Of a stretch of 64,000 bases of DNA, positions 1,424-54,589 are shown one piece after another. The first letter of the stretch is position 1, and each line of letters starts with the position of its first letter. A model generated the notes under the pieces. It saw only the letters and a list, made by a program, of their open reading frames with translations, searched no databases and was not told the origin of the DNA. The stretch is taken from positions 1,050-65,049 of the forward strand of contig DATJPV010000023.1 in the NCBI GenBank assembly GCA_035506195.1. Reading direction: 5' to 3'. The position numbers were made by a program, and so were the translations under genes. The DNA is from Patescibacteria group bacterium (lineage in GTDB: Bacteria; Omnitrophota; Gorgyraeia; Gygaellales; Profunditerraquicolaceae).

Positions 1424-4400
1424 TTAGGCTTTTTCCGCCGTCGTCAGCTCCTCTTCCTTGGGTTCATCTTTCTGCGCCTTTGCCTCCCTGACTAATTCGA
1501 TCTCGCGGTGCGTGCGAAAACCGGTCCCCGCCGGGATCAAGTGCCCGACGATAACGTTCTCTTTCAGGCCGAAAAGTTCGTCGCGCTTGCCTGAGGCAGC
1601 GGCATCGGTAAGTACGCGGGTAGTTTCCTGAAAGCTGGCCGCGGAAATGAAGCTTTCCGTGGTCAACGATGCTTTCGTAATACCCAATAACAGCGGCGTG
1701 GCCAACGCGGGTTTACCGCCTTTTTTAATAATCCGCAGGTTCTCCTTCTGAAATCTCCATTTATCTACCTGTTGGGTAGCCAGGAATTCCGTATCGCCCG
1801 CGTCTTCTATTTTTACTTTTTTAAGCATCTGCCTGATGATCAGCTCGATATGTTTGTCGTTGATGCGCACACCCTGCAGGCGGTATACTTCCTGCACCTC
1901 GTTGACCAGGTATTCCTGCAGGACCTTGTCGCCGCAGACCCTCAAGATATCCTGTAAAACTACCGGGCCGTCGGTGAGCTGCTGGCCGGCAACGACCTTA
2001 TCGCCTTTATAGACGTTGGGGTGCTTGCCGTGCGGAATCGCGTACTCTCTCTGCATGCCGGTGGGCGACTTGACGATAATAACGCGCTGCCCTTTCTTGG
2101 ACTCTCCGAATTCCACGAAACCATCGATTTCGCTGATGATCGCCGGGTCCTTGGGCCGACGCGCCTCGAACAACTCCGCCACGCGAGGAAGACCGCCGGT
2201 GATGTCCCTGGTCTTACCCACCAAGCGCGGAGTCTTGGCCAGAAGATCGCCGGCCTCAACCCGCTGCCCGTCCTTGACCAGGATGTGCGCGCCTATGGAA
2301 ATCGGATAAATACCCAGCACTTCTTCCTTATCATCCAGGATGAGTATCTGCGGATGGAATTCCTGTTTATGTTCGACCACTACGCGTTCGGTCAACTTGG
2401 TAACCGGGTTGAGCTCTTCGCGAATGGTTATCTCGTCTTTCAAATCTTCGTATTTCACCCGGCCGCCTACTTCGGTCAGAATGGGCGAGGTGTACGGATC
2501 CCAGCGGATGAACGCAATGCCCTTGGCCACCTCTTCCCCTTCGGGCAAGCTGATGAAGGAACCCTGCGGTACCGGATAACGCTCTAATTCCCTGCCTTGC
2601 TTATCATTGATACTGATGGACCCGTTCCTGTTCAGAACGACGAACTCTTTATTCTTGGCGGTAACGCGCAGGCCGTGGTACTTGATGACGCCTTTGTTCT
2701 TTGCCTTGATAAAGGATTGCGCAACGATTCTGGAAGCGGTACCGCCGATATGGAAGGTCCTCATGGTCAGCTGGGTCCCGGGTTCGCCGATGCTCTGTGC
2801 GGCGATGACACCGACCGATTCTCCTACCTCTACGATCCTTCCGGAACCTAAGTTCCTGCCGTAACATTTGCAACAGACGCCCCGGCCGGATTCACAGGTA
2901 AGGACGCTGCGGATACGTATCTTTTCTATGCCCAGCCTTTCGATCATCTCGGCTTTTTCTTCCGTAATCTCCGACCCCTGCTCGACAATGACGGTATCGG
3001 TAATAATGTCTACGATGTTATCCAGCGCGACCCTTCCGACGATGCGGTCCTTGAGACTGACCACCACTTCGTCGCCTTCGATGATCGCGGCTACGGTGAT
3101 GCCGTTAAGCGTGCCGCAGTCGTCTTCGACCACAATGACTTCCTGAGCTACGTCTACGAGCCTGCGGGTCAGGTAACCCGCATCTGCCGTCTTAAGCGCG
3201 GTATCAGCCAGACCTTTGCGTGCGCCGTGGGTAGAAATAAAATACTCCAACACCGTCAGCCCTTCGCGGAAATTTGCAGTAATGGGGTTTTCGATGATCT
3301 CGCCCGAAGGCTTGGCCATCAGACCGCGCATCCCTGCCAGCTGTCTTACCTGCAGGCGGGAACCTCGCGCGCCGGAGTCAGCCATCAAAAAGATCGGATT
3401 AAAAGGCTCCATCTCCTTGAAGAGAAGATCCGCAACGCGGTCGGTGGTATGCGTCCAGACGTCGATAACTTTATTATATCTTTCCCTGTCGGTAATGATG
3501 CCCCGGCGGTATTGTTCTTCGACCTTGGAGACCTCGGCCTTGGCTTCCTTTAAAACGTCGGCTTTGGCTGCGGGGATCTTCATATCGTCGATAGCAATGG
3601 ACATGCCGCCGTAGGTGGCAAACTGAAAACCTAATTTCTTGATATCATCTAAGAGCTCAATGGTACGGGTGTGGCCGAAGCGCTTATAACAATCCGCGAC
3701 AACCTCCCCGACCGTCTTTTTGTTCATTTCTTTGTTCACGAAACCGAATTCTTCCGGCAAGACCTGATTGAAGATCACCCGGCCGACAGTCGTCGTCACC
3801 ATCTGGCGTTCGTTACTGAGGTTTTTTTCCTCCAGGTCATATACCTTATACAACCGCAGGTTGATCTTTGCGTGCAGCTCGACTTCTTTATCTTCGTAGG
3901 CGATCAAAACCTCATCGGCGCCGCTGAAGGTCTTATTCTCCCCTTTGACGCCTGGTTTGATCTTGGTCAGATAGGAAACTCCGAGGATGATATCCTGCGT
4001 AGGGCTGACGATGGGGCGGCCATCGGCAGGAGAAAAAACGTTATTGCTGGCAAGCATCAGGATTTTTGCCTCCAGCTGAGACTCCAGCGAAAGCGGCACG
4101 TGTACGGCCATCTGATCGCCGTCGAAATCCGCGTTGAAGGCGGTACACACCAACGGATGGATCTTAATAGACTTTCCTTCGATCAGGACCGGCTGGAACG
4201 CCTGGATACCCAAACGGTGCAGGGTCGGAGCGCGGTTAAGCAGGACAGGATGGTCTTTAATGACTTCGTCCAGTATGTCCCAGACCTCGATCTTGCCGCG
4301 TTCCACCATGCGGCGCGCGCCCTTGATCGTATGCACGAAACCTTTTTCCCTTAACTTCTTGATGATGAACGGCTCGAACAGTTCCAGGGCCATCTGCTTA

Positions 4401-5491
4401 GGAAGGCCGCACTCATGCAACTTCAGATCCGGGCCGACCACAATAACGGAGCGCCCGGAATAATCCACGCGCTTACCCAGAAGATTCTGTCTGAAACGGC
4501 CCTGTTTGCCCTTAAGCATATCCGAAAGCGATTTTAGCGGCCGGTTATTCGCGCCCATGACCGCCCTGCCGTGCCTGCCGTTATCAAGCAGCGCATCCAC
4601 CGCTTCCTGGAGCATACGTTTTTCATTGCGGATAATGATCTCGGGGGCATTCAACTCCATCAGTTTCTTAAGGCGGTTATTACGGTTAATGACGCGGCGA
4701 TAGAGGTCATTGAGGTCGGAAGTGGCGAAGCGGCCTCCGTCCAGGGGGACCAGGGGCCTTAAATCCGGAGGTATCACCGGCAGGATCTCCAATACCATCC
4801 ATTCGGGCTTGTTGCCGGAAGCCTTGAAGTCTTCGATGATCTTCAAGGTCTTAAGGGCCTTGCGGTTGCCTAAGGCATCCTTGGATTTCTCCAGGTCGCG
4901 GCGCAATTTACGGCAGACGCTGTCAAACTCCAGCTCCTTGAGCATCTCCTGAACCGCTTCTGCTCCGATCTTTGCCTTGAAGTTTGCCCCGTATTTATTC
5001 AATGCCTCCTGGTATTTCTCTTCGTTTAAGAGCTCTCTCTTCTTGAGCGGCGTGTTGCCGGGGTCAACGACGACATACTCCTCGTAGTAAATCACTTTTT
5101 CCAGGTCCCGCAAGGTCATATCAAGCATCGCCGACAGGCGCGAAGGAACTGCCTTAAAAAACCAGATATGCGTAACCGGCGTTGCCAACTCGATATGGCC
5201 CATACGCTCGCGCCTGACCGAAGAGCGGTCCACGATCACCCCGCAGCGGTCGCAGGTGATGCCTTTGAACTTTATACCTTTATATTTACCGCAATTGCAT
5301 TCCCAGTCGCGCACCGGGCCGAAAATCTTTTCGCAGAACAATCCGTCCTTTTCGGGCTTGAGGGTACGGTAATTGATCGTCTCGGCCTTCTTGACTTCCC
5401 CCTTAGACCAGGATTTAATGATCTGGGAGGAGGCAATCTTGATCGCGATACTATCAAACAGGATTATTTCTTTAATCTCTTTTTCTTCCAT
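1424..5491 (-). CDS. rpoC: DNA-directed RNA polymerase subunit beta'
   Basis: 1355 aa; zinc-finger CNCGKYKG...[18 protein letters not shown] catalytic motif. Lies 12 nt upstream of rpsL. Confidence 0.97.
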
Positions 5492-5492
5492 A

Positions 5493-8400
5493 TTATTTAG
5501 TCTTCTCCGTCCGGATATCCAGACCCAAACCCTGCAATTCTTTCACCAGAACGTTGAACGATTCGGGTGTACCGTGAGTGAGCCGCTGTTCGCCTTTCAC
5601 AATCGCTTCATAGATGCGGGTTCTTCCAGAGACATCATCGCTTTTGACGGTAAGCATTTCCTGCAGCGTAAACGCAGCGCCATAAGCCTCCAACGCCCAA
5701 ACTTCCATTTCCCCCAGCCTCTGGCCGCCGAATTGGGCCTTGCCGCCGAGGGGCTGCTGGGTAACCAGGGAATAGGGGCCGATAGAACGGGCGTGGATCT
5801 TCTCGTCGACCAAATGCACCAGTTTCATGATATAAATATAGCCGACGGTAATCTGCTGGTCGAACTGTTCGCCGTTATAGCCGTCGTGCAGCGTCACTTT
5901 TCCGTTTTCCGGCAGGCCTGCCTTCTTGAGCATTTCCTTGATCTCTTCTTCGGTGGCGCCGTCAAATACGGGGGTGTCCACTGCAAGGTTAAGCATTTTA
6001 GCCGCCCAGCCAAGATGGGTCTCCAGGATCTGGCCGACATTCATACGCGAAGGAACGCCCAGGGGGTTCAAGACGACATCGATAGGAGTGCCGTCTGCCA
6101 GGTACGGCATATCTTCTTCGGGCAGGATCCTGGCCACCACGCCCTTGTTCCCGTGCCTTCCGGCCAATTTGTCGCCTTCGGCAAGCTTGCGCTTGGTGGC
6201 GATATACACTACCACTCTCTTGAGAACACCGGGAGGCAGCTCATCGCCGCGCCTGACCTTTTCGATCTCCTGCTGCTGTTCTGCCAACAACTCCTGGACC
6301 TGCTCGTCAAAAGAAGAGGCCAACATCTTTGCCTCTTCGTTATCGCTGAAATCTATCTTTTCCACCTTGCCCTTATCCACGCCCAGAAGCTGGCTTAAGC
6401 GGGTGATCTTTTCCGTCTGCACGAACTCTATTTCCTGTTTATAGTAGGCCTTAAGCTCACGGATCTTGGCCAATTCCTTGGTCTTTTCTTCCTTGGTCTT
6501 TCTGCCGCGGTCCTTGCGGGCGAATACGTGCACATCGACGACAAAGCCTTCCACGCCCGGCGGAACGGTCAAGGAAGTATCCCGCACATCGGAAGCCTTT
6601 TCGCCGAATATTGCCCTCAGGAGCCTCTCCTCCGGGGAAAGTTCGGATTCAGTCTTCGGGGTTACTTTGCCGACCAGGATATCGCCCGGCCCGACCTCTG
6701 CGCCGATACGGATAATGCCTGTCTCATCGAGGTTGCGCAGGGCATCTTCGCTTACGTTGGGGATATCGCGGGTCACTTCTTCGTTGCCCAGGCGCGTTTC
6801 GGTCGCCTCGATCTCGAATTCCTCTACGTGGATCGAAGTGAGCATATCTTCCCTGACGACCCGCTCGCTTACCAGGATGGCGTCTTCAAAGTTGCATCCG
6901 CGCCACGGCATGAATGCGCACAACAAGTTCCTTCCCAGGGCGAGTTCCCCGCCCCTGGTACATACGCCGTCAGCGATCACCTCGCCCTTGTCCACGTGGT
7001 CGCCCACCTTGACCAGCGGTTTCTGGTTCAGGCAGGTATCGGCGTTGGTGCGCAAAAATTTCTTGAGATGGTAGATCGACTTACCGATCACGATCGAAGA
7101 GGCATCTACGCTGGTCACCTTTCCGGAGTCCGTGGCTACGACAACGGTGCCGGAATCACGGGCGACCTTGGCTTCCATGGCGGTGCCTACCAAGGGGGAT
7201 TCACACACCATCAAAGGAACTGCCTGCCGTTGCATGTTTGAACCCATGAGCGCGCGGTTGGCATCGTCATGCTCTAAGAAGGGGATCAGCGAGGCAGCCA
7301 CTGAAACCAGCTGTTTAGGAGAAACGTCCATGTATTCGACCTGTTTGGCGGAAACCTTGACGTAATCGCTCTTGTGACGGCAGGCCACTTCCTTCTCGAC
7401 AAAATAGCCCTCGCTATCCAGAGGGACATTTGCCTGCGCGATCACTTTGTCTTCTTCGATGTCGGCGGTCAAATATTCGATCTTACGGGTCACGCGGCCT
7501 TCCTCGACTTTTCTGTAGGGGGTCTCGAGCAGCCCCAGGGAATTAACCTGGGCATAGGTGCTCAAAGACGCGATCAAGCCGATGTTCGGGCCTTCGGGCG
7601 TTTCTATGGGGCATATCCTGCCGTAATGGGACGTATGGATGTCCCTGACCTCAAAGCCGGCACGCTCGCGCGAAAGGCCTCCGGGACCCAGGGCGCTGAG
7701 CCTGCGCTTGTGGGTCATCTCGGCCAAGGGATTAACCTGGTCCATGAACTGCGAAAGCTGGCTGCGGGAGAAGAAATCCCTGATCTGGTTGGAAAGCAGT
7801 TTTGAATTGATCAAATAATGCACGCTTAAGTTGCTGAAGTCCCCCAGTATGCTTAAACGCTCCCGTATGGAGCGCTCCACCCTGGACAGGCCGATGCGGA
7901 TCTGGTTCTGTACCAATTCTCCGACGGTCTTGACGCGGCGGTTACCCAGGTGGTCGATATCGTCGATCTTGCCGACGCCTTCGTGCAGCTTGATCAAATA
8001 TTCCATGACCTTAATGACGGTGGATGAATCCAGGATCCTTTTTTCAACCGACACATCCATGTCTAATTTTCTGTTCAGGATAAAGCGCCCCACCCTTTCC
8101 AGGTCATAACGGGCGGGGTCAAAAAATAATCTATAGAATAAAGCCTCGGCTGCCTCTTTGGTAACCGGCTCTGTCGGCCGCATCTTGCGGTAAAAATCAA
8201 GATAGGCCTCTTCCTTGTTCTTGGTATAGTCTTTTTTAAGGGTATTGTGGATTTCTTTGTATTCCGAACTAAAGGCGGAAAGGATCTCCTGGTCGGTTGA
8301 GAAACCCAGGATCCTCAAGAGCTGGGTGGCGGGAAAGTTCCGGCGCCTGTCCACATAGGCGATGATGGTCTCGGACAAGTCGTATTTGAATTCAAGCCAG

Positions 8401-8897
8401 GCGCCCCGGTACGGGATGATGCGGCCGTGGAAAATCTTTTTGCCTGTGGGGTGGCTCTCCTCTTCGAAGGAAACGCCCGGAGAACGCTGCAGCTGGCACA
8501 CGACCACGCGTTCATCGCCGTTGATAATGAATGTGCCGGTATCGGTCATCAGCGGGATCTCGCCGAAATAGGCGTCCTGCTCTCTGGTCTCGTGGGGCGT
8601 GGTAAGCCTGAATTTTACTTTAAGGGCGGAGGCATAGGTAAGCGCGCGGCGTTTGCACTCCGCAAGGTCATATTTTGATTTACCGAGCGTATAGCTGATG
8701 AACTCCAACTTTACCGAACGGTTGGAGTCTTCGATCGGGAAGACCTCTTCAAAGACCTCCTGCAAACCGATAGACTTACGCTCCTGGGACGGGACGTCTA
8801 CCTGCAAGAACTCACGGTAAGACTCAAGTTGCAGATCCAGGAGATTCGGCAAATCGTAGATTTCTTTTAGCTTGGCAAAATTTTTACGCTTATTCAT
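5493..8897 (-). CDS. rpoB: DNA-directed RNA polymerase subunit beta
   Basis: 1134 aa; conserved rpoB blocks ([39 protein letters not shown]). Stops 1 nt before the rpoC start. Confidence 0.97.
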
Positions 8898-15000: not shown

Positions 15001-16902
15001 TTAGGATCCTTTAGTGATGCCGATCTTGTTGAAATTACTGATCGCCTCTTTCAAAAGGCGACAGTACAGGTCGAATCCGACCGCAGAAATAAAACCGTGC
15101 TGCTGGATCCCCAGGAGATTTCCCGCCCCTCTCATTTCCAGGTCCTCCATAGCGATCCTGAAACCCGAGCCCAGCGCCGAGTGCTCCTGGATGGCGCTCA
15201 AGCGCTTCCTGGCATCGCTGTCGATAGGGTCGTTCTTGGGGATCATAAAATACGCATACGCAGGACGGTCGAACCTGCCGACCCTGCCGCGTAGTTGATG
15301 CAGGTCGGAAAGGCCGAAAGTGTGGGCGTTATTCACGATGATCGTATTAGCGTTGGGCATATCGATACCGGATTCGATAATCATGGTACACAGCAGCACA
15401 TCGACCTTGCCGCTTAAGAATTCAAGCATCACCGCCTCAAGGACCCGCGCAGGCATCTGTCCGTGCGCAACCGCGATCTTAACGCCGGCAGGCAGTATCC
15501 GTAAGATCCTTTCGTGGATTTTCTCGATATTCTGGACCCGGTTGTGCAGAAAGTACACCTGCCCCTTGCGTTTCAGCTCTCGGGTGATTGCCTGGCGGAT
15601 CAAATCTTCATCATATTCTACCACAATACTTTTTATGGGCAACCTATTTTGTGGCGGGGTATTAAGGAGTGACAGGTCACGGGCGCCCATAAGGCTCATG
15701 TATAACGTACGCGGGATAGGCGTGGCAGTCAGCGTCAGTACATCCGCCATAAGCCTCATTCCTTTCAGTTTTTCTTTGGCCCTGACGCCGAATCTTTGCT
15801 CCTCATCGATGATCACCAGGCCCAGGTTCTTGAAGCTCACATCGGCCGACAAGAGCCGATGGGTGCCGATGACGATATCGACCGTACCGTTCTTAAGGCC
15901 TTCGATGATGGAATCCTGCTGGGCCTTGGTCTTGAAACGGGACAACATCTCTACCTCGACGGGAAAATCCTTCAAGCGCTGAGTAAAATTCTGGTAATGC
16001 TGTTCCGCCAGGATCGTCGTAGGCACCAGATACGCCACTTGCCTGTTGTCCATCACCGCTTTAAAGGCGGCGCGCATGGCTACTTCGGTTTTGCCGTATC
16101 CGACGTCGCCGCATAAAAGCCGGTCCATGGGCTTGGCGGATTCCATGTCGGCCTTGACCTCTTGGGTTACCTTGGATTGATCCGGCGTTTCGCTGTAAGG
16201 AAACGTTGCCTCGAATTGGGCCTGCCACGGGGTATCCTGCGCATAGGAAAAACCGGATACCGTCATGCGCATAGCCTGTAGCGATAGCAACTCCCAGGCA
16301 AGTTTTTGCACGCCCTTCTTGACGGTCTCCTTGAGCCGGCCCCACTCCTTTGAACCCAGGCGGCTAAGCCGGGGCCTGCGCGCCTGAAAGGCGACATACT
16401 TTTGCAGCAGGTGTATCTCTTCGACCGGCACATAGAGTTTTTCCTGCCGGTCGTATTCTATAACCAGGTGGTCTTTCCGGCCCAGGCTCGTCTGGAGTTT
16501 ATCCAGGCCGAGGAACCGGCCGATGCCGTGCTGGGTATGTACGACGTAGTCGCCCAGCTGCAGATCGACAAAACTGTCGATGGGGAAATCTTCCCGGAAG
16601 GTAGAGGTCTTAAGCGGGTGGCTTTCCTTAAAGGGCAGGATGATCACCATTTGATGGGACCAGAGGGCATTGCCGTCTGAAGGATCGAAGGTCTTCAGCG
16701 CGACAACCGCATCCCCGTCCAGCTCAATACGGATGGGCAGCTCAAAGGTAGAAGGAAATATGTCCAGGATACCGCCCCGGCGGGCAAAATCGCCCTCCTG
16801 GAGGACGCGCTCCTGCCTTTTATAGCCGAATGCAACGAGGATAGAGCAGGCCTCTTCAAGATCGACCGCGCCGCCTGCGTATATTTTGAGGGATTTAAAC
16901 AT
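15001..16902 (-). CDS. mfd: transcription-repair coupling factor, short form (RNAP-interacting domain plus translocase only)
   Basis: The track ORF (to 17073) runs across the upstream terminator. The true start is ATG 16902 (MFKSLKIYAGG). 633 aa with the Mfd RNAP-interaction domain LGDYVVHTQHGIGRFLGL and SF2 motifs (GDVGYGKTEVA, DEEQRFG, TATPIPRT, HQLRGRVGR). It lacks the UvrB-homology N-terminal domains D1-D2 and the C-terminal D7. Confidence 0.85.
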   Translation of the reverse strand: MFKSLKIYAGGAVDLEEACSILVAFGYKRQERVLQEGDFARRGGILDIFPSTFELPIRIELDGDAVVALKTFDPSDGNALWSHQMVIILPFKESHPLKTSTFREDFPIDSFVDLQLGDYVVHTQHGIGRFLGLDKLQTSLGRKDHLVIEYDRQEKLYVPVEEIHLLQKYVAFQARRPRLSRLGSKEWGRLKETVKKGVQKLAWELLSLQAMRMTVSGFSYAQDTPWQAQFEATFPYSETPDQSKVTQEVKADMESAKPMDRLLCGDVGYGKTEVAMRAAFKAVMDNRQVAYLVPTTILAEQHYQNFTQRLKDFPVEVEMLSRFKTKAQQDSIIEGLKNGTVDIVIGTHRLLSADVSFKNLGLVIIDEEQRFGVRAKEKLKGMRLMADVLTLTATPIPRTLYMSLMGARDLSLLNTPPQNRLPIKSIVVEYDEDLIRQAITRELKRKGQVYFLHNRVQNIEKIHERILRILPAGVKIAVAHGQMPARVLEAVMLEFLSGKVDVLLCTMIIESGIDMPNANTIIVNNAHTFGLSDLHQLRGRVGRFDRPAYAYFMIPKNDPIDSDARKRLSAIQEHSALGSGFRIAMEDLEMRGAGNLLGIQQHGFISAVGFDLYCRLLKEAISNFNKIGITKGS

Positions 16903-16916
16903 GCGGATAATAAATA

Positions 16917-16981
16917 AAACCGGGGACGTTTCTGGTTTTTCAGCAGCACGCACGAAAAACCCGAAACGTCCCCGGTTTTTT
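16917..16981 (-). terminator. intrinsic terminator-like hairpin between secDF and mfd
   Basis: 17-bp inverted repeat AAAACCGGGGACGTTTC ... GAAACGTCCCCGGTTTT with a 29-nt loop. T-rich tracts follow it on both strands (TTTTATTTATTAT on minus, TTTTTT on plus). Confidence 0.5.
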
Positions 16982-16985
16982 ACGA

Positions 16986-19202
16986 CTAGACCCGATGCGG
17001 CGTCTTCCCTGTGCCCTTGCTCCACGCCAACACCAATGGCGAGGCGATGTAGACGGTGGAATACGCACCGCAAATGAAACCGACAAAAAGCGCAAACGCG
17101 AAATTACTCAAGACCTCCCCGCCGAAGAAAAATATCGCGACAACGACGAAAAGCGTTACCCCCGTCGTCAGGATCGTCCTGGACATGCACTGGTTTACGC
17201 TTAAATTAATAAGATCATAAAGGCTCATTTTTCTCATCGACCGGGCATTCTCCCTGACGCGGTCATAGATAACAATGGTATCGTTGATCGAATAACCGGC
17301 GATGGTCAGAAAGGCCGTCACGCTCAACAGGTCTATTTCTCTGCCGGTAAGGCTCATCATACCCAGGGCTACCAGCACATCGTGGAACAAGGCGATGATG
17401 CCCGCGACGGCAAAATTCAAATGCTTGAAACGGAATCCTACATACACCAGGATCCCCGCCATCGACCAGATAATCGCCTGGATGGCTTTGCCTTTGAGGT
17501 GCTTGCCTGCGACCGGGCCCACATGTTCGATGCGCAGTATCTGGATATCCTGGCCGGGAAAGGCCTCTTTTAATTTCGCGGTAAGTACCTGGTTCCTGTC
17601 CTCCGAGGTCCTGATCAAAAGGACGCGCGGGTTATCCTTGAACTGCTGGAGGGATACGTCGCTAAGATTCAGGCCCTTTATTATCTGTCGTACGGCGTCG
17701 ATGGGCGGCGGGGTCTTGAAACTATACTCCTGAAGCTGTCCGCCGGAAAAATCGATCCCGTAGGCCTTGTGGCCCTTCATGAAGAAAGAAGTCAGCCCTA
17801 CGACGGTGATCAGTATCGACAGCGCGTAGAATATCCGCCGCTTGCTGATGTAATCCAGCTTCGGTTCTTTGATCAACCTGAACATCGGCAGCGATTTGAC
17901 GAGGTTATAATCCAGAAGGATCTCGAAGATCGTGCGCGTTACGACGATGGCGGTGAACATGCTCACCGTAAGACCGATGGTCAAGGTCACGGCAAAACCT
18001 CGGATAGGGCCGGTGCCGAACTGGAACAAAAGGAGCGCGGCGATCAAAGTAGTAAGGTTGGAATCAAGGATCGCACTGAAGGCCCGGTTATACCCGTTGG
18101 CGATGGCCGCGCGCAAGGTCTTGCCCAGAGCGACCTCTTCGCGGATACGCTCATTAATGAGGACATTGGCGTCGACTGCCATGCCCAGCGACAGCGCGAT
18201 ACCGGCGATACCGGGCAGCGTCAAGGTAGCCGAGATCCCCGGGAAAAAATGAGGCAGCATCCCTAAGACACCCAGGGTCATCAGCAGGTTAAGCATGAGC
18301 GCGATATCCGAGATAACGCCGGCCAAAAGATAATAGCACGCCATAAAAACGAGGACTATCCCGGTACCGATGATGCTGGCGCGGACACCCTTGTTGATGG
18401 AATCCTGTCCCAGGAGCGGGCCGATGGTCCGCTCTTCCTCGATGTACATCGGGGCAGGTAACGCGCCGACCCTTAACACCAACGCCAGGTCCTGCGCCTG
18501 GGGCACGTCAAAATGACCGGTAATGACCGCTTCTCCGGAAGGGATCGCTTCCTTGATACGCGGAGCGGATTGCACTTTGCCGTCAAGGACAATCGCCAGC
18601 CTCTTGCCTACGTTGGCGGCGGTTATCTCGGCGAACTTCTTGGCGCCTTCGGCATTGAATTCCAGGCCGACCACGGGCTCATTAAAACCGCCCTGGCTGA
18701 AACGTACGCTTGCGTTAACGATCTTGTCGCCGGTCAAGGCCGCCGCCTTCTCCAGCAACAGCGGCTCATGGTCCTCTTGGGAGTACTTTAGCTCATACCC
18801 CTCCGGAGGGTTGCCTTCAATGGCAAGTTTAAGCTTGTCGGCATCCGGGGATACAAGCTTGAATTCCAATAACGCGGTCTTGCCGATAAGGTCTATCGCG
18901 CGCTCTCTGTCGGTGACCCCCGGCAATTGCACGACTATCTCGTCGGCCCCCTGCTTCTGGATCGAGGCCTCCCGGACTCCGAACTCGTCAATCCGGTTAC
19001 GGATCACTTCCAGCGCCCGATCCGCAGCCTCTTCCTTTGCCTTTTCCGAAAGGTGGGCGGTATCAACTTTAAGCAACAGGTGCATCCCGCCTTGTAAGTC
19101 AAGGCCTAAGTTGATCCGCTTTTGCAAAGGGAATGAAAAGTAGCCGCAGAGCAGGCATACCCCCAGAATCGCGATTGCTTTTAAGAAAAGTTTTTTTGTC
19201 AT
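16986..19202 (-). CDS. secDF: protein translocase subunit SecDF (SecD-SecF fusion)
   Basis: 738 aa. SecD periplasmic and TM bundle followed in-frame by a SecF-like second TM bundle (two RND-like 6-TM halves). Confidence 0.88.
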   Translation of the reverse strand: MTKKLFLKAIAILGVCLLCGYFSFPLQKRINLGLDLQGGMHLLLKVDTAHLSEKAKEEAADRALEVIRNRIDEFGVREASIQKQGADEIVVQLPGVTDRERAIDLIGKTALLEFKLVSPDADKLKLAIEGNPPEGYELKYSQEDHEPLLLEKAAALTGDKIVNASVRFSQGGFNEPVVGLEFNAEGAKKFAEITAANVGKRLAIVLDGKVQSAPRIKEAIPSGEAVITGHFDVPQAQDLALVLRVGALPAPMYIEEERTIGPLLGQDSINKGVRASIIGTGIVLVFMACYYLLAGVISDIALMLNLLMTLGVLGMLPHFFPGISATLTLPGIAGIALSLGMAVDANVLINERIREEVALGKTLRAAIANGYNRAFSAILDSNLTTLIAALLLFQFGTGPIRGFAVTLTIGLTVSMFTAIVVTRTIFEILLDYNLVKSLPMFRLIKEPKLDYISKRRIFYALSILITVVGLTSFFMKGHKAYGIDFSGGQLQEYSFKTPPPIDAVRQIIKGLNLSDVSLQQFKDNPRVLLIRTSEDRNQVLTAKLKEAFPGQDIQILRIEHVGPVAGKHLKGKAIQAIIWSMAGILVYVGFRFKHLNFAVAGIIALFHDVLVALGMMSLTGREIDLLSVTAFLTIAGYSINDTIVIYDRVRENARSMRKMSLYDLINLSVNQCMSRTILTTGVTLFVVVAIFFFGGEVLSNFAFALFVGFICGAYSTVYIASPLVLAWSKGTGKTPHRV

Positions 19203-34370: not shown

Positions 34371-35888
34371 CTAGGGCTCTTTTTCGGAGAAGACCGTAGC
34401 CGTAAACACATAAAGCTCGGTAGCTTTTTCTTTCCAGGCGTCGGGGGAAAGCCCTGCCTTATGGCTGCAGAGCGCAGAGAGGAATTCCTCCTTTGACCAG
34501 CCGGTTTCTGCGGCCACCTGGGGCAGGAACACGCCGCTACGGTATCCGCGCTTTACCAATACGCCGTGGGTCCCGAGCTTTATTTCATCGACGGAAGAAA
34601 CCCGCTGGAGAGGAGAAAGTACCGAAATCTCTATCTCGGCATCCTTAAGCTCTGCCGGCTGAAGGGGCGGGAAACGCGGATCCCCCACTGCCGACTCGAC
34701 GGCCATATCCCTTATCGTCAGGTATAACGGCTGATTGCCGACGAGATTACCGATGCAGCCGCGCAGCTGGCCATGCTCGTGCAAGGTTACAAAGGCGCCG
34801 TGCGCCTTGGACAGGACCGGATCGTCTTCAACAAGCTCCATGCGCTTGCCGGTTTTTAAATATGCTTCTATCGAGGCGCGGGCGATCTCCAGAAGCCTTT
34901 TTTTCTGGTTAGTGTTGAGCATCTGCGCTCCCCTTTCCTGTGGTTGGTCGATGGCACAGCTGGAGTAACCCACGGTCCAGATACCCTTGATCTTTCTTCC
35001 GGTCACCACCGCGGAATTCGTGTAGTGCAGGACCTCAAGCGTTTCGTGCCCCAGCGACTTGGCCAGATCAAGCACGGTGACAACCGGAAAACCTCCGCAT
35101 AGCTGGGCTTTTTCCTCGCGCAAGCCATAGTATAATCCCAATACGTCCATATTCCTTAAATACACCAGGGTCTGCCTGTCCGCGGCCTCCGCGGCCTCAT
35201 AGTCGTAACCGTGATACATATCGCTGGAAGCGACCACCAGCACATCTTCGCGCGTGCCTATCGCCTCCTTCAAGAGACTGGCAAGCTTACGGCAGACGGC
35301 AAGAGTACAGTCCCCCATAACTATCGGCACGACCTTGAATTCGGAAAGCGACCGCTGAAGAAATGGCAGCTGTACCTCCACGGAATGCTCCTGCTCAAAT
35401 GCCGCCGGCAGAAAGGTAATCGCGCCGTCCTGATTAAGGAGCCTCTGGGCAAATTGCGCATCGACTTCGACATCGCCCAGGGGCGTCCGGAATGCCCCCT
35501 GGGGATATACAGACACCGCATCAAACCCAAAACGATGGCTTGGGCCGATCACCACGACTGTCCGGTACGGCTTGCCCTTGATCAGCTTGTACGCGTATGC
35601 AGCGGTCTGGCCGGAATATCCGTATCCGGCATGCGGACAGACCAACGCAATGACCGGGCCGGACATCGGTTTAGGCTGCGCTGCCGCAAGGAACCCGTCG
35701 ACCATCGAACGCAGCTGCTGGGGGTTATCAGGATAGAACGCGCCGGCGACGTTCGGCTCTTTGATATCGGACGCAGCGCAATTCCCCTGCGCCAAGGAAC
35801 CAAAGAGCATAGCGACAGTTACGATGATTACTTTAATTCCAGACGCCTGCGATCTTTTCTCCGCAAAATTTACATTTTCCATCGACAA
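34371..35888 (-). CDS. AmmeMemoRadiSam system fusion protein: MEMO1-like (protein B) N-terminal domain plus AMMECR1 (protein A) C-terminal domain, with N-terminal signal peptide
   Basis: 505 aa. The Memo region carries VAGAFYPDNP...CPHAGYGYSG...SSDMYHG. The AMMECR1 region carries GAFVTLHEHGQLRGCIGN. The start is TTG 35888 (or ATG 35882) after GGAGGTGA. The first 38 aa MSMENVNFAEKRSQASGIK-VIIVTVAMLFGSLA-QGN look like a signal peptide. It overlaps the rSAM gene end by 56 nt. Confidence 0.85.
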   Translation of the reverse strand: MSMENVNFAEKRSQASGIKVIIVTVAMLFGSLAQGNCAASDIKEPNVAGAFYPDNPQQLRSMVDGFLAAAQPKPMSGPVIALVCPHAGYGYSGQTAAYAYKLIKGKPYRTVVVIGPSHRFGFDAVSVYPQGAFRTPLGDVEVDAQFAQRLLNQDGAITFLPAAFEQEHSVEVQLPFLQRSLSEFKVVPIVMGDCTLAVCRKLASLLKEAIGTREDVLVVASSDMYHGYDYEAAEAADRQTLVYLRNMDVLGLYYGLREEKAQLCGGFPVVTVLDLAKSLGHETLEVLHYTNSAVVTGRKIKGIWTVGYSSCAIDQPQERGAQMLNTNQKKRLLEIARASIEAYLKTGKRMELVEDDPVLSKAHGAFVTLHEHGQLRGCIGNLVGNQPLYLTIRDMAVESAVGDPRFPPLQPAELKDAEIEISVLSPLQRVSSVDEIKLGTHGVLVKRGYRSGVFLPQVAAETGWSKEEFLSALCSHKAGLSPDAWKEKATELYVFTATVFSEKEP

Positions 35889-36936
35889 TATTCACCTCCA
35901 GCACAATATACCCCGAACGCCTGATCAAGACCTTGTTGCAGGCAGGACAATACGTCTGCTCCGCCGGATGAGGGGATATATTTCCTATATACACGTACTT
36001 GAGCCCGCAGTCAAGCGCAATATCCCTGGCCTTTTCCAGGGCGCTTACCGGCGTCGGGTTCAACGCAGCCAGTTTATACAAAGGGAAAAAGCGGGAAAAG
36101 TGCAACGGCGTATCCGCGCCCAGGTTATCCTTGATCCAGCGGCACATGGCGATGAGTGTCTGACTGTCATCGTTAAACCCCGGGACGATCAGGTTGGTAA
36201 CCTCCAGGTGCACCCCGGCTTTTTTTATGGCTTTTAACGTCTCCAGGACCGGCCCAAGCGTAGCGTCGGAAAACCGGGCGTAGTAATCATCGCTGAATCC
36301 CTTCAGGTCGATGTTCGCCGCATCCAGATACGGAAGGAGCTGCTCCAGCGGCTCTTTGTTGATATAACCGGCGGAGTGCATCATGTTGCGTATCCCCTGC
36401 TTCTTGGCCAGCTTCGCAGTCTCCAGCATATATTCATAAAATATGGTCGGCTCAGTGTAGGTATAGGCGATGGTCGGGCTGCCCGCCTCCTTGACCCTGC
36501 GCACCAGTTCTTCGGGCGATACGTCCAGAGAACTGACCTCCTCGGGCTTGCGCTGGGAGATCTCCCAGTTTTGGCAAAATTTACAGCGCAGGTTGCACCC
36601 CGCCGTGGCGATGGAATAGGCGGCGGTGCCGGGCAGAAAATGAAACAGGGGCTTTTTTTCGATCGGATCGATGTGCACGGCGACGGGCCGGGAGTATACA
36701 AGCGTATACAGCGTGCCGTTACGGTTCTCCCTTACACCGCAGAAACCGCGCCTGCCTTCGGTAATCAGGCAGTTGCGCGGACACAAATGGCACTGGACGG
36801 CCCTGTCTTTAAGTTTCTCATAAAAAAGGGCTTCTTTGAGGGTCGTTGCGGCGGTTAACCGAGGAAGCGCAATGCAGGCCCCCAAGAGGACCCAAAGGAA
36901 GGCAAAAAGGCAAGCCGCTCTTATGGCATGCTTCAT
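35833..36936 (-). CDS. AmmeMemoRadiSam system radical SAM enzyme
   Basis: 367 aa. Conserved EALFYEKL...VQCHLCPRNC and the radical SAM cluster motif CNLRCKFCQNW. N-terminal hydrophobic segment AACLFAFLWVLLGACIAL. The ATG lies 15 nt after the tRNA-Ala 3' end with no SD. Confidence 0.85.
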   Translation of the reverse strand: MKHAIRAACLFAFLWVLLGACIALPRLTAATTLKEALFYEKLKDRAVQCHLCPRNCLITEGRRGFCGVRENRNGTLYTLVYSRPVAVHIDPIEKKPLFHFLPGTAAYSIATAGCNLRCKFCQNWEISQRKPEEVSSLDVSPEELVRRVKEAGSPTIAYTYTEPTIFYEYMLETAKLAKKQGIRNMMHSAGYINKEPLEQLLPYLDAANIDLKGFSDDYYARFSDATLGPVLETLKAIKKAGVHLEVTNLIVPGFNDDSQTLIAMCRWIKDNLGADTPLHFSRFFPLYKLAALNPTPVSALEKARDIALDCGLKYVYIGNISPHPAEQTYCPACNKVLIRRSGYIVLEVNIVDGKCKFCGEKIAGVWN

Positions 36937-42183: not shown

Positions 42184-42196
42184 GTGTCCTTAGGGA

Positions 42197-44791: not shown

Positions 44792-44800
44792 GCGTACCCC

Positions 44801-51796: not shown

Positions 51797-54589
51797 CTAG
51801 CCGTTCAATACCTTTTTCAGGAACACGGCGGTATAGGAATCACGGTTATCGAGTATTTCTTCGGGAGCCCCGCTTGCCACCACCTGCCCGCCCCTGTCTC
51901 CGCCCTCCGGCCCCAAGTCAATGAGATAGTCGGCGCATTTGACCACCTCCAGGTTATGCTCGATGACCACAACGGTATTGCCTTTATCCACCAGCCTCTG
52001 GAGTACCGACAAAAGCTTTTCCACATCGGCAAAATGCAAACCCGTGGTCGGTTCGTCTAAAATATAAAGCGTCTTGCCGGTGGCGCGCTTGCTCAGCTCC
52101 GCGGAAAGCTTGACCCGCTGGGCCTCGCCGCCGGAAAGAGTAGTGGCGGATTGCCCCAATTGCATATACCCCAGCCCTACGTCATAAAGCGTCATCAGCG
52201 TATTCCTGATGCCGGGGATGTTACTGAATAAACCCATCGCCTCTTCGATGGTCATCTCAAGAACGTCGGCGATGGACTTGCCTTTATAACAGACCTCAAG
52301 CGTCGCCTCGTTAAAGCGCCTGCCCTTGCAGATATCGCACTTGACGTAGACATCCGGCAGGAAATGCATCTCTATTTTTTTAATCCCGTCCCCGCCGCAG
52401 GCTTCGCAACGCCCGCCTTTGACATTGAAGGAAAACCTCCCCGGCTTGTAGCCGTGCATCCGCGCTTCCGGTATCTTGCTGAAGAGGTCCCTGATATGGC
52501 TGTATATGCCCGTGTAGGTAGCAGGGTTGGAGCGAGGGGTCCTGCCGATGGGAGATTGATCAACTTCAATGACCTTATCGATATATTCGGCGCCGACCAG
52601 CTTCTGGTAAAGGCCGGGCTTCTCTTTTGCTTTATACAATCTCTGCATAAGGCTGCGATACAGAATCTCATCGACCAGGGTGGATTTTCCCGACCCCGAG
52701 ACTCCCGTCACGCATACGAATACCCCCAGGGGAAACTTGACGTCGATATTCTTAAGATTATGTTCCCGCGCCCCCTTGATCTCCAGAACCTTCTTCTGGT
52801 CATGCGGCCTTCTCTGTGCCGGCACCGGGATACGCAATTGTTTCCTCAGGTACCGGGCAGTAAGCGACTGCTGATTCTGCAGCAGGTCCGCCCGGGAGCC
52901 CGCAAAGACCACTTCTCCGCCGTGCCTGCCGGCGCCAGGGCCTAAATCCACGATGAAATCCGCGGTCATGATGGTTGATTCATCGTGCTCCACTATGATC
53001 AACGTATTACCGAGGTCCCGCAGGGTCTTTAAAGTCTGGATAAGCTTGACGTTATCCCGGGGGTGCAGGCCGATACTAGGCTCATCGAGGATATACAGCA
53101 CCCCTACCAACCCGGACCCCACCTGCGTAGCCAGGCGTATCCGCTGCGCCTCTCCTCCGGAAAGCGTCGAGCTTCTCCTGTCGAGCGTCAAATAATCAAG
53201 CCCGACGTCGATACAGAATTGCAGGCGCTGTAAGATCTCCTTGAGCACCTGATGCGCGATGAGCTTCTGTTTCTCGGATAATGAAAGGCGGCCGAAAAAA
53301 TCACGCGCTTGTTTTATCGGCATCCGAGATGCCTCGTGGATATTCTTGCCGTTGACGGTCACGGCAAGGCTTTCTTTTTTGAGCCGCGCGCCGCCGCAGG
53401 TAGGGCAAGGAAGGCTCGACATGAACCTGGATATCTCTTCTTTCAGGTAATCGCTGTCGGTCTGGCGGAAGAGCCTTTCCAGGTGCGGTAGCACTCCTTC
53501 AAAAGGCTTACCCCCTACCTCAACGTCGGTACCGTACAGAATGGCCTTTTGCACCTGACGGCTCAGCTTTTTAAAAGGAGTATCCAGGTCAAAGCCCATC
53601 TGGTGCGCAAGCTCGCGGATAAGCCAGCGATAATACAGGATGTAGCCCTTACCTCCGCGCTTCCAGGCTTCGATCGCCCCCTCATTGATCGTCTTATTCT
53701 TATCCGGCACGATGAAATCCGGATCGAATTCAAGCTTAGTCCCCAAGCCGTGGCAGTCGGGGCAGGCCCCGTAGGGGGAATTGAACGAGAATATGCGGGG
53801 TTCGACTTCCGGGTAGCTGATGCCGCACTGGGCGCAGGCATATTGTTCGCTAAAAACCAGATCGCGCTCCCGGACGTGGACAATGACGATGCCCTTGCCT
53901 GTTTTTAGCGCCGTCTCAACGGAATCGGTAAGGCGCTTCTTGATCTCGGGTTTAATGCTTAAACGGTCGACAACGACCTCGATATTGTGGACCTTGTATT
54001 TCTGGAGCTTTATCTTATCCGGCAGCTCATATATGCGGCCATCGATGCGGCAGCGCACAAAGCCTGCCTTCTGGATCTGGTTCAATATATCCCGGTACTC
54101 CCCTTTCCTGCCCCGGACCAGCGGCGCCAAAACCTGGATATCGCTTGCCGGCGGTAATGCCATGATCCGTTCAACGATCTCCTGCACGCTCTGCCGCTCT
54201 ATGGGCTGGCCGCACCGGTAGCAGGCGATACTCCCAACGCGGGCGTAAAGGAGCCGCAGGTAATCGTAGATCTCCGTCTGCGTGGCCACGGTAGAGCGGG
54301 GATTGCCTCCGGCCGTCCTCTGCTCGATGGCGATTGCCGGCGACAGGCCCTCGATGTATTCGACGTCAGGCTTCTGCAGCTGCTCTAAAAACTGGCGCGC
54401 GTACGCCGACAGGCTTTCCACATAGCGCCTCTGCCCTTCGGCATAAATAGTATCAAAGGCAAGGCTGGATTTGCCGGAGCCGGAAAGTCCGGTAACGACA
54501 ATAAGCTTATTACGGGGCAGCTTCAGATTTATATTTTTGAGGTTGTGTTCTTTGGCGCCTTTTATGACTATATATTCTTCCATGTGCAA
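51797..54589 (-). CDS. uvrA: excinuclease ABC subunit A
   Basis: 930 aa. Two ABC modules ([20 protein letters not shown]) and zinc fingers (CPDC...CGG, CEAC...C). Confidence 0.96.

What the first reader, a model, noticed from the sequence alone, without database searches (positions are those of the whole stretch)
15001..16985. Minimal Mfd lacking the UvrA-recruiting N-terminal module and the autoinhibitory C-terminal domain
The only sensible start (ATG 16902, just after the secDF terminator hairpin) yields a 633-aa protein. It begins in the D3-like region (GGILDIFP...IRIELDGD...FDP), has the RNAP-interacting domain (DYVVHTQHGIGRFLGL) and a complete SF2 translocase (motifs I-VI). It ends about 15 aa after the FDLYCRLL segment. 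Canonical Mfd (~1150 aa) has ~370 aa of UvrB-homology D1a-D2-D1b, which binds UvrA, and a ~150-aa D7 that autoinhibits. No room exists upstream, because secDF and a terminator abut the start, and surA follows 2 nt downstream, so this is not a frameshifted pseudogene. uvrA is present in the same window. Such a protein could displace RNAP but could not recruit UvrA in the canonical way, and would lack D2-D7 clamp regulation.
Basis: partly seen in the sequence, partly recalled or inferred. Interest (0 to 1): 0.6.

Follow-up and report, generated by a model that had tools for sequence, protein, structure and literature searches.

The report
Minimal Mfd keeping only UvrA-binding domain
[quoted passage not shown] It keeps the UvrA-docking domain, the RNA-polymerase-binding domain and the motor, but has lost the scaffold domains and the self-inhibiting tail present in every studied Mfd.

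Summary
The 633-aa ORF (15001-16902, minus strand) is real and is an Mfd: NCBIfam TIGR00580 scores 887 bits against a cut-off of 800. Residues 5-92 are not "D3-like". They are domain D2 (Pfam UvrB_inter, E 4e-18), the domain that binds UvrA, and they match the 93-aa E. coli D2 construct co-crystallised with UvrA (4dfc). The architecture is D2, a roughly 20-aa flexible linker, RID, translocase with TRG and hook helices, then stop. D1a, D1b, D3 and the autoinhibitory D7 are absent. They are not encoded anywhere else in the 64-kb window.

The short form is not an artefact. More than 120 homologues of 615-709 aa carry the same Pfam set, and eight Omnitrophota loci from the species-representative genome collection show the same boundaries. 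These short forms are a single clade (neighbour-joining bootstrap 77/100). Their nearest relatives outside the clade are all 975-1337 aa.

Key residues are kept: the UvrA contacts (E. coli R165 and R181), the TRG residues and the hook-relay tryptophan (W550). The window's uvrA keeps its UvrB/Mfd-binding domain.

Best reading: a natural minimal TRCF that can recruit UvrA but has no D2-D7 clamp. It is a new variant of a known kind. I found no description of it in the literature searched.

The parts
15001..16902 (-). mfd CDS, 633 aa plus stop (TAA 15001-15003). Short transcription-repair coupling factor.
   Evidence: ORF and sequence. TIGR00580 887 bits against cut-off 800. 120 homologues of 615-709 aa with the same Pfam set.
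16627..16890 (-). Domain D2 (aa 5-92), Pfam UvrB_inter, the UvrA-binding domain. Contains R42, R58 and E60.
   Evidence: Pfam E 4.3e-18. Aligns to E. coli Mfd 145-217 and to 4dfc_A, 2b2n and UvrB domain 2. AF2 pLDDT 78-94.
16567..16626 (-). Linker between D2 and RID (aa 93-112). It replaces about 170-320 aa of D1b and D3 in canonical Mfds.
   Evidence: AF2 pLDDT below 50 in both models. Spacer is 17-26 aa in short forms against 173-319 aa in canonical forms.
16393..16566 (-). RNA-polymerase-interacting domain (D4/RID, aa 113-170). L136 corresponds to E. coli L499.
   Evidence: Pfam CarD_TRCF_RID E 2.2e-18. PDB 3mlq_E match. L499 role from PMC3001067.
16261..16347 (-). Relay helix (aa 186-214), including W187, which corresponds to E. 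coli W550.
   Evidence: AF2 helix 186-214. W187 is invariant in 75 sequences. W550 role from PMC3488230.
15703..16188 (-). Translocase domain 1 (D5, aa 239-400). Walker A GDVGYGKT (265-272) and DEEQ (366-369).
   Evidence: Pfam DEAD E 1.1e-24. Invariant columns.
15271..15591 (-). Translocase domain 2 (D6, aa 438-544). Motif VI QLRGRVGR (536-543).
   Evidence: Pfam Helicase_C E 6.5e-22. Invariant columns.
15010..15222 (-). TRG motif and hook helices (aa 561-631). R567, R591 and Q601 correspond to E. coli R929, R953 and Q963; V608 corresponds to I970. The protein ends at the D6/D7 boundary.
   Evidence: PDB alignment of query 101-622 to E. coli 464-984. Invariant columns. AF2 helices 562-631.
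16905..16979 (-). Long hairpin plus U-tract between secDF and mfd (an intrinsic-terminator-like element), ending about 3 nt before the mfd ATG.
   Evidence: RNA fold -46.7 kcal/mol, z -6.78, 0 of 200 shuffles as stable. Sequence.
51797..54589 (-). uvrA (930-aa ORF), the presumed partner of D2. Its UvrB/Mfd-binding domain (UvrA_inter, aa 133-239) is at 53873-54193.
   Evidence: Pfam UvrA_inter E 2.6e-40 and UvrA_DNA-bind E 9e-30. Matches solved UvrA interaction domains 3fpn_A and 4dfc_B.
5493..8897 (-). rpoB (RNAP beta, 1134 aa), the presumed partner of the RID. The E. coli I117-K118-E119 patch reads T-R-E here.
   Evidence: TIGR02013 1738 bits. N-terminal translation. IKE role from PMC3001067.
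14084..14998 (-). surA-like chaperone gene immediately downstream (2-nt gap). Part of the conserved yajC-secDF-mfd-surA-pdxA-ksgA order.
   Evidence: Pfam SurA_N and Rotamase_2. Synteny in L001, L002, L003, L007 and L008.
16986..19202 (-). Fused secDF gene immediately upstream.
   Evidence: Pfam SecD_SecF_C and SecDF_P1_head.

Best explanation
The gene encodes a naturally minimised transcription-repair coupling factor. It consists of the UvrA-binding domain D2, tethered by a flexible linker of about 20 aa to the RNAP-binding RID. The relay helix, the two RecA-like translocase domains, the TRG motif and the hook helices follow, and the protein ends at the D6/D7 boundary.

Proposed mechanism (inferred):
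- The RID docks on the beta protrusion of a stalled elongation complex.
- D5 and D6 bind upstream duplex DNA and push RNAP forward using ATP, as in canonical Mfd.
- Autoinhibition by the D2-D7 clamp, and the D1-D3 loading movements that delay UvrA recruitment in E. coli, cannot exist here.
- The only regulatory node that remains is the conserved hook-relay interface (W187/V608), together with kinetic competition with elongating RNAP.

The architecture arose once, by loss of D1a, D1b/D3 and D7, in the lineage leading to the sampled Omnitrophota.

What is shown: domain content, boundaries, conservation, monophyly, and the presence of partner domains in UvrA and RpoB. What is inferred: UvrA binding, RNAP displacement and constitutive activity.
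For: Domain content:
- UvrB_inter 5-92, CarD_TRCF_RID 114-170, DEAD and Helicase_C are found; TRCF is not.
- TIGR00580 is above its equivalog cut-off.
- D2 aligns to E. coli Mfd 145-217 and to the isolated D2 chain 4dfc_A. The partner chain 4dfc_B (a UvrA fragment) matches the window's UvrA.

Conservation of functional residues:
- R42 and R58 (E. coli R165 and R181, required for UvrA binding and TCR; PMC3025350) are invariant in 30 close homologues and at least 90% conserved in 75 sequences.
- The TRG residues R567, R591 and Q601 and the relay-helix W187 are invariant.

Structure prediction:
- AF2 gives pLDDT 81.6, with D2 folded (78-94) and the linker 93-112 disordered.
- The best fold matches are Mfd structures.

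Lineage:
- 120 of the 120 best homologues are 615-709 aa and none has PF03461.
- Eight Omnitrophota loci from the species-representative genome collection, at 53-72% identity, have the same boundaries.
- The short forms are monophyletic, with bootstrap 77/100.
- Among short forms D2 is 59% identical, against 70% for the RID. The same ordering holds in canonical Mfds, which argues for purifying selection on D2.

Missing domains and partners:
- No D1a, D1b-D3 or D7 is encoded elsewhere in the window or in the related loci.
- uvrA with its UvrA_inter domain is in the window.

Experimental precedent:
- E. coli Mfd lacking D7 still displaces RNAP, has about 5-fold higher ATPase, and translocates without RNAP (PMC1874598).
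- It supports TCR in vitro and in vivo (PMC3025350).
- T. thermophilus Mfd is not autoinhibited (PMC13453472).
Against: - No biochemical data exist for this family.
- The third E. coli UvrA-contact residue, F185, is not kept. It is D62 here and is variable across the family, although some canonical Mfds also lack it (P0125, P0235).
- R42 is replaced in two divergent short forms: S in L003 and T in L007.
- In E. coli the whole UvrB-homology module was tested, not D2 alone within a full-length protein.
- D1-D3 also take part in loading (PMC7864632), so their loss could impair steps I assume still work.
- The rest of the genome was not available. A second, canonical mfd, or the absence of uvrB or uvrC, cannot be excluded.
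Confidence: 0.7

Rival explanations
1. This is the first reader's model: an RNAP-displacement-only factor, such as a roadblock remover or termination factor, that cannot recruit UvrA.
For: F185 is not conserved, and R42 is lost in some divergent members. Natural Mfds uncoupled from NER exist in Buchnera, Wigglesworthia and the Arabidopsis chloroplast (PMC3488230).
Against: - The known NER-uncoupled Mfds have lost D2 and occur where UvrABC is absent.
- Here D2 is specifically retained and conserved, 59% among short forms, with R42 and R58 invariant in the close clade.
- uvrA with an intact UvrB/Mfd-binding domain is present.
- Keeping an 88-aa domain through a phylum-deep radiation while deleting its neighbours argues that it has a function.
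Confidence: 0.12
2. D2 has been re-purposed. Instead of binding UvrA, or in addition to it, D2 docks on the translocase or RID as a replacement autoinhibitory or regulatory element, or it binds another partner.
For: - In E. coli the same D2 surface takes part in autoregulation as well as UvrA binding (PMC3025350).
- A translocase with no brake is thought unlikely to be tolerated (PMC3488230).
- The D2-RID linker carries conserved residues (E104, P107, F111, D113) although it is predicted to be disordered.
Against: I could not obtain evidence of a D2-motor contact, because no coordinates or PAE are accessible for the AF2 model. The linker is predicted to be flexible. Mfd lacking D7 is tolerated in E. 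coli in vivo.
Confidence: 0.12
3. The short protein is an extra paralogue. A canonical full-length Mfd elsewhere in the genome performs TCR.
For: Only 64 kb of the genome was visible. This possibility was not tested directly.
Against: - All eight Omnitrophota-labelled loci among the 80 best hits in the species-representative genome collection are short, and none of the 72 canonical loci is labelled Omnitrophota.
- The gene sits in a conserved housekeeping cluster.
- It scores as the TIGR00580 equivalog.
- Mfd is normally a single-copy gene (general knowledge).
Confidence: 0.08
4. It is an artefact: an assembly indel, a truncated pseudogene, or a miscalled RecG.
For: None found.
Against: - The same boundaries occur in more than 120 independent assemblies and in eight loci from the species-representative genome collection, with an in-frame stop upstream of the start.
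- An identical locus is present in an independent ENA assembly.
- RecG models score far below their cut-offs, and a RID is present.
Confidence: 0.01

Closest known systems
Canonical Mfd/TRCF (E. coli Mfd, 1148 aa; PDB 2eyq, 6x26; M. smegmatis 6ac8)
   Same: D2, RID, relay helix, D5/D6 translocase, TRG motif and hook helices are all present. Identity over RID-D6 is 51-60%. The key residues R165, R181, L499, W550, R929, R953 and Q963 are kept.
   Different: It lacks D1a (about 105-200 aa), D1b plus D3 (about 170-320 aa) and D7 (about 130-215 aa). There is therefore no D2-D7 clamp and no D1-D3 loading movement. F185 is not kept.
Engineered E. coli Mfd lacking D7 (Smith 2007, PMC1874598; Manelyte 2010, PMC3025350)
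   Same: There is no autoinhibitory C-terminal domain, and the protein ends after the hook helices. The engineered protein displaces RNAP, is derepressed for ATPase and translocation, and supports TCR in vitro and in vivo. It is the best functional analogue.
   Different: The engineered protein still has D1a, D1b and D3. The natural protein here has lost those as well.
Atypical BHM-less Mfds of Buchnera, Wigglesworthia and the Arabidopsis chloroplast (PMC3488230)
   Same: They are naturally shortened Mfds that retain the RID, the motor and the hook-relay interface.
   Different: The pattern is the opposite. Those proteins lack D1a-D2-D1b, keep D7, and occur where UvrABC is absent. This one keeps D2, lacks D7, and sits in a genome that has uvrA.
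Thermus thermophilus Mfd (978 aa; 6m6a, 13jq; PMC13453472)
   Same: It is evidence that clamp autoinhibition is not universal, and that a constitutively derepressed Mfd can be the native state.
   Different: Tth Mfd still has all of the modules D1-D7. Its clamp is only loose.
RecG
   Same: It is the sister SF2 translocase and shares the TRG motif. The fold match to 1gm5 ranks 16th.
   Different: This protein has no wedge domain. RecG models score 186-398 bits against cut-offs of 555-995. A RID and D2 are present here.

Membership tests
Mfd / TRCF (NCBIfam TIGR00580 equivalog) | Whole-protein score above the curated equivalog cut-off | tested here: met
   887.2 bits against a cut-off of 800. 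The E. coli-type model PRK10689 scores 631 bits against 1329, which is below its cut-off, as expected for a protein missing half of the model.
Mfd / TRCF | RNAP-interacting domain (CarD_TRCF_RID, D4) | tested here: met
   PF02559, residues 114-170, E 2.2e-18. Matches 3mlq_E. L136 corresponds to E. coli L499.
Mfd / TRCF | SF2 translocase with motifs I-VI plus the TRG motif and hook helices | tested here: met
   DEAD and Helicase_C found. GDVGYGKT, DEEQ and QLRGRVGR are conserved, and R567, R591 and Q601 are invariant. The alignment reaches E. coli residue 984.
Mfd / TRCF | UvrA-binding domain D2 (UvrB_inter) | tested here: met
   PF17757, residues 5-92, E 4.3e-18. Aligns to E. coli 145-217 and to 4dfc_A.
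Mfd / TRCF | Complete UvrB-homology module (D1a and D1b flanking D2) and D3 | tested here: not met
   There are 4 aa before D2 and 20 aa between D2 and the RID. tblastn with D1a and D1b-D3 of the closest canonical Mfd finds nothing in the window.
Mfd / TRCF | C-terminal autoinhibitory domain D7 (Pfam TRCF, PF03461) | tested here: not met
   No PF03461 hit. None of the 120 homologues has it. The tail after D6 is 8 aa. No D7 hit in the window.
Mfd / TRCF | Biochemical activities: ATP-dependent RNAP displacement, UvrA binding and strand-specific repair enhancement | not testable with these tools
   Inferred only from domain and residue conservation and from E. coli deletion mutants.
BHM-less atypical Mfd (Buchnera type) | Absence of D1a-D2-D1b, retention of D7, and a genome lacking UvrABC | tested here: not met
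   D2 is present, D7 is absent, and uvrA is present. Family description from PMC3488230.
RecG | Score above the RecG equivalog cut-offs, and an N-terminal wedge domain | tested here: not met
   The best RecG model scores 398 bits against a cut-off of 718. The N-terminus is D2 plus RID.

The most novel reading that the evidence does not exclude
An entire bacterial phylum (Omnitrophota) runs transcription-coupled repair with a 630-aa Mfd as its only TRCF. That protein consists solely of the three partner-binding or catalytic modules: D2 for UvrA, the RID for RNAP, and the motor. If so, the D1a/D1b scaffold, D3, the D2-D7 clamp and the multi-step D1-D3 loading movements are dispensable in nature. 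UvrA recruitment would then be ungated, or gated by a mechanism not yet known, such as the conserved D2-RID linker, the hook-relay node or low expression.
Probability: 0.45. Interest if true: 0.65.

Novelty: new variant of a known kind. Interest (0 to 1): 0.55.

Why it matters
Current models of Mfd regulation centre on the D2-D7 clamp and on a large rearrangement of D1-D3 that delays exposure of the UvrA-binding surface until Mfd is committed to a stalled polymerase. One published view holds that a permanently activated Mfd is unlikely to exist in cells.

A conserved natural Mfd that keeps D2 but has no D7, D1a, D1b or D3 is a direct natural test of which parts are essential. It extends the 2026 finding that autoinhibition is not universal.

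It also offers a compact 633-aa protein for structural and single-molecule work on the core reaction: RNAP binding, translocation and UvrA hand-off. It raises the question of how UvrA sequestration and attack on normal elongation complexes are avoided.

For annotation, it shows that "transcription-repair coupling factor" labels hide a distinct architecture.

Tried and rejected
- Pseudogene or assembly artefact. Rejected because the boundaries are conserved in more than 120 assemblies and in eight genome loci.
- RecG. Rejected on model scores and the presence of a RID.
- 'D3-like' N-terminus. Rejected; it is UvrB_inter/D2.
- Missing domains as separate ORFs. tblastn with D1a, D1b-D3 and D7 of the closest canonical Mfd (P0122) against the window and against Omnitrophota loci L001-L008 found nothing. 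This covers only the DNA in hand.
- First AF2 run, on 30 close homologues. It gave a poor model (pLDDT 59) and was not used. A 75-sequence alignment that includes canonical Mfds gave pLDDT 81.6. No coordinates or PAE were available, so D2-motor contacts could not be assessed.
- Literature searches for Mfd together with Omnitrophota or Omnitrophica returned no papers. Searches for atypical Mfd architectures returned only the Buchnera-type BHM-less forms.
- A further whole-database search with D7 to look for canonical Mfds in Omnitrophota. I considered it and did not run it. Only 120 hits would be listed out of a very large number of Mfds, so the test would have had little power.
- Conservation of the upstream hairpin. 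A similar long hairpin precedes mfd in L002 but not in L001, L003 or L008, so it is not a family feature.
Full report
**1. The observation**

The minus-strand open frame 15001..17073 contains an ATG at 16902 that gives a 633-aa product. secDF (Pfam SecD_SecF_C and SecDF_P1_head) stops at 16986. Between it and the ATG lies a long hairpin followed by UUUUAUUUAUU. Its folding energy is -46.7 kcal/mol, against -24.1 ± 3.3 for shuffles (z = -6.8). It ends about 3 nt before the ATG. The stop codon TAA (15001-15003) is followed after 2 nt by the ATG of a surA-like gene. The protein ends 16 residues after FDLYCRLL.

A GTG 17 codons upstream, used by one gene caller for the 650-aa P0001, lies in the hairpin loop. 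It is unlikely to be the start, because 30 homologues begin at the conserved MFKSLKLY. In eight related genomic loci an in-frame stop lies within about 35 codons upstream of that start, in five of them within 5 codons.

**2. What it is**

NCBIfam TIGR00580 (mfd, equivalog) scores 887 bits against a cut-off of 800. RecG models score 186-398 bits against cut-offs of 555-995.

Pfam finds four domains:
- UvrB_inter, residues 5-92, E 4.3e-18
- CarD_TRCF_RID, residues 114-170, E 2.2e-18
- DEAD, residues 239-400
- Helicase_C, residues 438-544

The TRCF domain (D7) is not found.

Against solved structures, residues 101-622 align to E. coli Mfd 464-984. Residues 22-94 align to E. coli Mfd 145-217. They also align to 4dfc_A, a 93-residue Mfd chain. 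Its partner chain 4dfc_B is a UvrA fragment that matches the UvrA encoded in this window. UvrB domain 2 chains (3fpn_B, 1c4o, 2d7d and others) are hit as well.

The architecture is D2, linker, RID(D4), relay helix, D5, D6 with TRG and hook helices, then stop. The missing parts are D1a, D1b, D3 and D7.

Compared with the closest canonical Mfd (P0122, 1136 aa, candidate division NPL-UPA2):
- Short residues 5-96 match P0122 141-232.
- Short residues 101-625 match P0122 473-996.
- P0122 residues 1-140, 233-472 and 997-1136 have no counterpart anywhere in the 64-kb window at tblastn E < 1.
- They also have no counterpart in eight related Omnitrophota loci.

**3. Structure prediction**

A first AF2 run on a shallow alignment was poor (pLDDT 59). 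With a 75-sequence alignment of short and canonical Mfds (A3) the model reached pLDDT 81.6 and pTM 0.65:
- D2 is confidently folded (block means 78-94).
- Residues 93-112 fall below 50, consistent with a flexible tether.
- The RID scores 70-88.
- A long relay helix spans 186-214.
- Both RecA-like domains are modelled.
- The C-terminal helices 562-631 cover the TRG motif and hook.

Foldseek against the PDB returns Mfd structures first (6ac8, E 5e-64, TMq 0.73; then 2eyq and 6x26). RecG (1gm5) ranks 16th.

**4. Conservation of functional residues**

E. coli numbering is transferred through the alignments.

| E. coli residue | Role | Residue here | Conservation |
|---|---|---|---|
| R165, R181 | Substitution (with F185) abolishes UvrA interaction and TCR (PMC3025350) | R42, R58 | Invariant in 30 close homologues; at least 90% in 75 sequences |
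| D183 | Position of the UvrB E215 contact (this correspondence is from memory) | E60 | Nearly invariant |
| F185 | Third UvrA-contact residue | D62 | Not kept; variable in the family. Some canonical Mfds also lack it (P0125 and P0235) |
| L499 | RID-RNAP contact (PMC3001067) | L136 | L or I in the family |
| W550, I970 | Hook-relay node; disruption derepresses Mfd (PMC3488230) | W187, V608 | W187 invariant in all 75 sequences |
| R929, R953, Q963 | TRG motif | R567, R591, Q601 | Invariant |

Two divergent short forms have lost R42: L003 has S and L007 has T.

Per-domain identity among short forms is 59% for D2, 70% for the RID and 70-78% for the motor. The ordering is the same among canonical Mfds (40%, 47% and 56-67%). 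D2 therefore evolves under constraint comparable to that in canonical proteins.

**5. Partners in the same window**

uvrA (51797..54589, minus strand) has UvrA_inter (aa 133-239, E 2.6e-40) and UvrA_DNA-bind. Its interaction domain matches solved UvrAs at E 1e-37, including the isolated interaction domains 3fpn_A and 4dfc_B. It keeps a [11 protein letters not shown] motif. I infer from memory of the E. coli sequence that this motif contains the equivalents of E. coli R216 and E222, the UvrB/Mfd interaction surface (PMC3025350).

rpoB (5493..8897) and rpoC (1424..5491) are also present. The beta residues that correspond to E. coli I117-K118-E119, the RID contact patch, read T-R-E.

**6. Distribution**

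The 120 best hits among 5.8 billion proteins are all 615-709 aa, and most are 628-638 aa. All carry PF17757, PF02559, PF00270 and PF00271, and none carries PF03461. Wherever they are named, they come from Candidatus Omnitrophota or Omnitrophica.

An exhaustive HMMER scan of 1.84 billion representatives clustered at 50% identity gave the following. Of the 150 best clusters, only two are short single-stretch matches (P0121, 642 aa; P0123, 640 aa). The other 148 are 975-1337 aa, nearly all with D2 and RID-D6 matched as separate stretches. The named canonical neighbours are NPL-UPA2, Ca. Tritonobacter (Auribacterota, PVC group), Halonatronum and Verrucomicrobiota.

In the species-representative genome collection, loci L001-L008 carry short genes at 53-72% identity. 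Seven are labelled Omnitrophota, including Ca. Kappaea frigidicola, and one is labelled Planctomycetales. The gene order yajC-secDF-mfd-surA-pdxA-ksgA recurs in them.

On alignment A3 the two classes separate cleanly:

| Class | Residues before D2 | Spacer between D2 and RID | Tail after D6 |
|---|---|---|---|
| Short forms | 0-13 aa | 17-26 aa | 3-22 aa |
| Canonical forms | 105-197 aa | 173-319 aa | mostly 130-216 aa |

Short forms are as diverged from each other (49-58% identity) as they are from canonical Mfds of other phyla. Even so, they form one clade in a neighbour-joining tree of the shared RID-D6 region, with bootstrap 77/100. The simplest history is a single ancient loss of the three segments in the Omnitrophota lineage.

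**7. Mechanism**

Shown here:
- The protein contains the three modules known to contact UvrA, RNAP and DNA.
- It lacks the two halves of the autoinhibitory clamp other than D2.

Established by experiment in E. coli:
- Mfd lacking D7 still displaces stalled RNAP in a RID-dependent way. It has about 5-fold higher basal ATPase and translocates on naked DNA (PMC1874598).
- It supports TCR in vitro and in vivo, whereas loss of the UvrB-homology module or of R165/R181/F185 abolishes strand bias (PMC3025350).
- The PDB holds a co-crystal entry, 4dfc, containing a 93-aa Mfd chain and a 126-aa UvrA chain.
- During loading, the RID stays anchored while D5/D6 corkscrew along the DNA and the unfolded relay helix wraps it. 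D1-D3 have to move out of the way, and they keep the UvrA determinant hidden until a late state (PMC7864632).

Inferred for this protein:
- It binds stalled ECs through the RID, translocates and wraps DNA through the retained relay helix.
- It presents D2 on a flexible 20-aa tether continuously.
- It should therefore behave as a constitutively derepressed TRCF, and the delay in UvrA recruitment is absent.
- What remains as control is the conserved hook-relay interface and kinetic competition with elongating RNAP.
- T. thermophilus Mfd already shows that clamp autoinhibition is not universal (PMC13453472).

**8. Comparison with known forms, and novelty**

The only natural atypical Mfds I found described are those of Buchnera, Wigglesworthia and the Arabidopsis chloroplast. 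They lack the UvrB-homology module, retain D7, and occur where UvrABC is absent. On that basis the authors argued that a permanently activated Mfd is unlikely (PMC3488230; PMC13453472).

The Omnitrophota form is the converse. D2 is kept, D7 is lost, and uvrA is present. No paper in the searchable library mentions Mfd together with Omnitrophota or Omnitrophica. Databases label these proteins simply as "transcription-repair coupling factor".

I therefore rate it a new variant of a known kind. It is a member of the Mfd family by the equivalog model, the RID, the motor, TRG and D2. It fails two features of the canonical architecture: the D1a/D1b/D3 scaffold and D7.

**9. Caveats**

- Nothing was tested biochemically.
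- I saw only 64 kb of the genome, so a second canonical mfd, and the status of uvrB and uvrC, remain open.
- The tree is a simple neighbour-joining tree.
- F185 is not conserved and R42 is lost in two divergent members. This leaves room for weakened or altered UvrA binding in parts of the clade.

Noticed in passing
window 16905-16979 (minus strand): A very stable hairpin with a U-tract lies immediately after secDF and ends about 3 nt before the mfd ATG. There is no Shine-Dalgarno sequence and no room for a promoter. mfd-surA-pdxA-ksgA may therefore be expressed only by terminator read-through, which could keep an unregulated Mfd at low abundance. A comparable long hairpin precedes mfd in L002 but not in L001, L003 or L008.
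   Followed up: partly
P0024, P0043 and P0113 (alignment A1, columns about 74-107): Some short Mfds carry a 25-45-aa insertion (IDTSP...SLECHGERGRT/NGERRRT) inside D2, directly after the conserved ELPIR arginine (R58, a UvrA-contact residue). Its origin and its effect on UvrA binding are unknown.
   Followed up: no
alignment A3, canonical Mfds: Among canonical Mfds the D2-to-RID spacer falls into a shorter group (about 173-207 aa) and a longer group (about 225-319 aa). This suggests that D3 is absent or reduced in many lineages. Two canonical-length proteins (P0163, P0193) have tails of only 55-69 aa. P0238 (Verrucomicrobiota, 975 aa) lacks D1a and most of D2. These could be intermediates or truncated gene calls.
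   Followed up: no
window 8298-8897 (rpoB N-terminus, minus strand): RpoB is compact (1134 aa). The Mfd-contact patch, I117-K118-E119 in E. coli, reads T-R-E here. This may reflect co-variation with the RID.
   Followed up: partly
window 60721-63291 (minus strand): An 856-aa ORF matches the Pfam STT3 oligosaccharyltransferase N-terminal domain (E 8e-24). It is an STT3/PglB-like enzyme in this uncultured bacterium.
   Followed up: no
window 34371-36936 (minus strand): A fused Memo-AMMECR1 protein (505 aa) overlaps a radical-SAM gene (367 aa). Together they resemble the AmmeMemoRadiSam trio, with two of its members fused.
   Followed up: no
window 39215-46372 (minus strand): A type II secretion / type IV pilus-like cluster (secretin, T2SSE ATPase, T2SSF) sits next to a 523-aa ORF (44801-46372) that has no Pfam match at E 1e-8.
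   Followed up: no
window 49302-51770 and 54595-56418 (minus strand): uvrA is flanked on both sides by large TPR-repeat proteins of 822 and 607 aa.
   Followed up: no
L003 (CAZIRV010000127.1): This contig is labelled 'uncultured Planctomycetales bacterium'. It carries the short Mfd and the Omnitrophota-type gene order secDF-mfd-surA-pdxA-ksgA. Either the bin is mislabelled or the short form extends beyond Omnitrophota.
   Followed up: no
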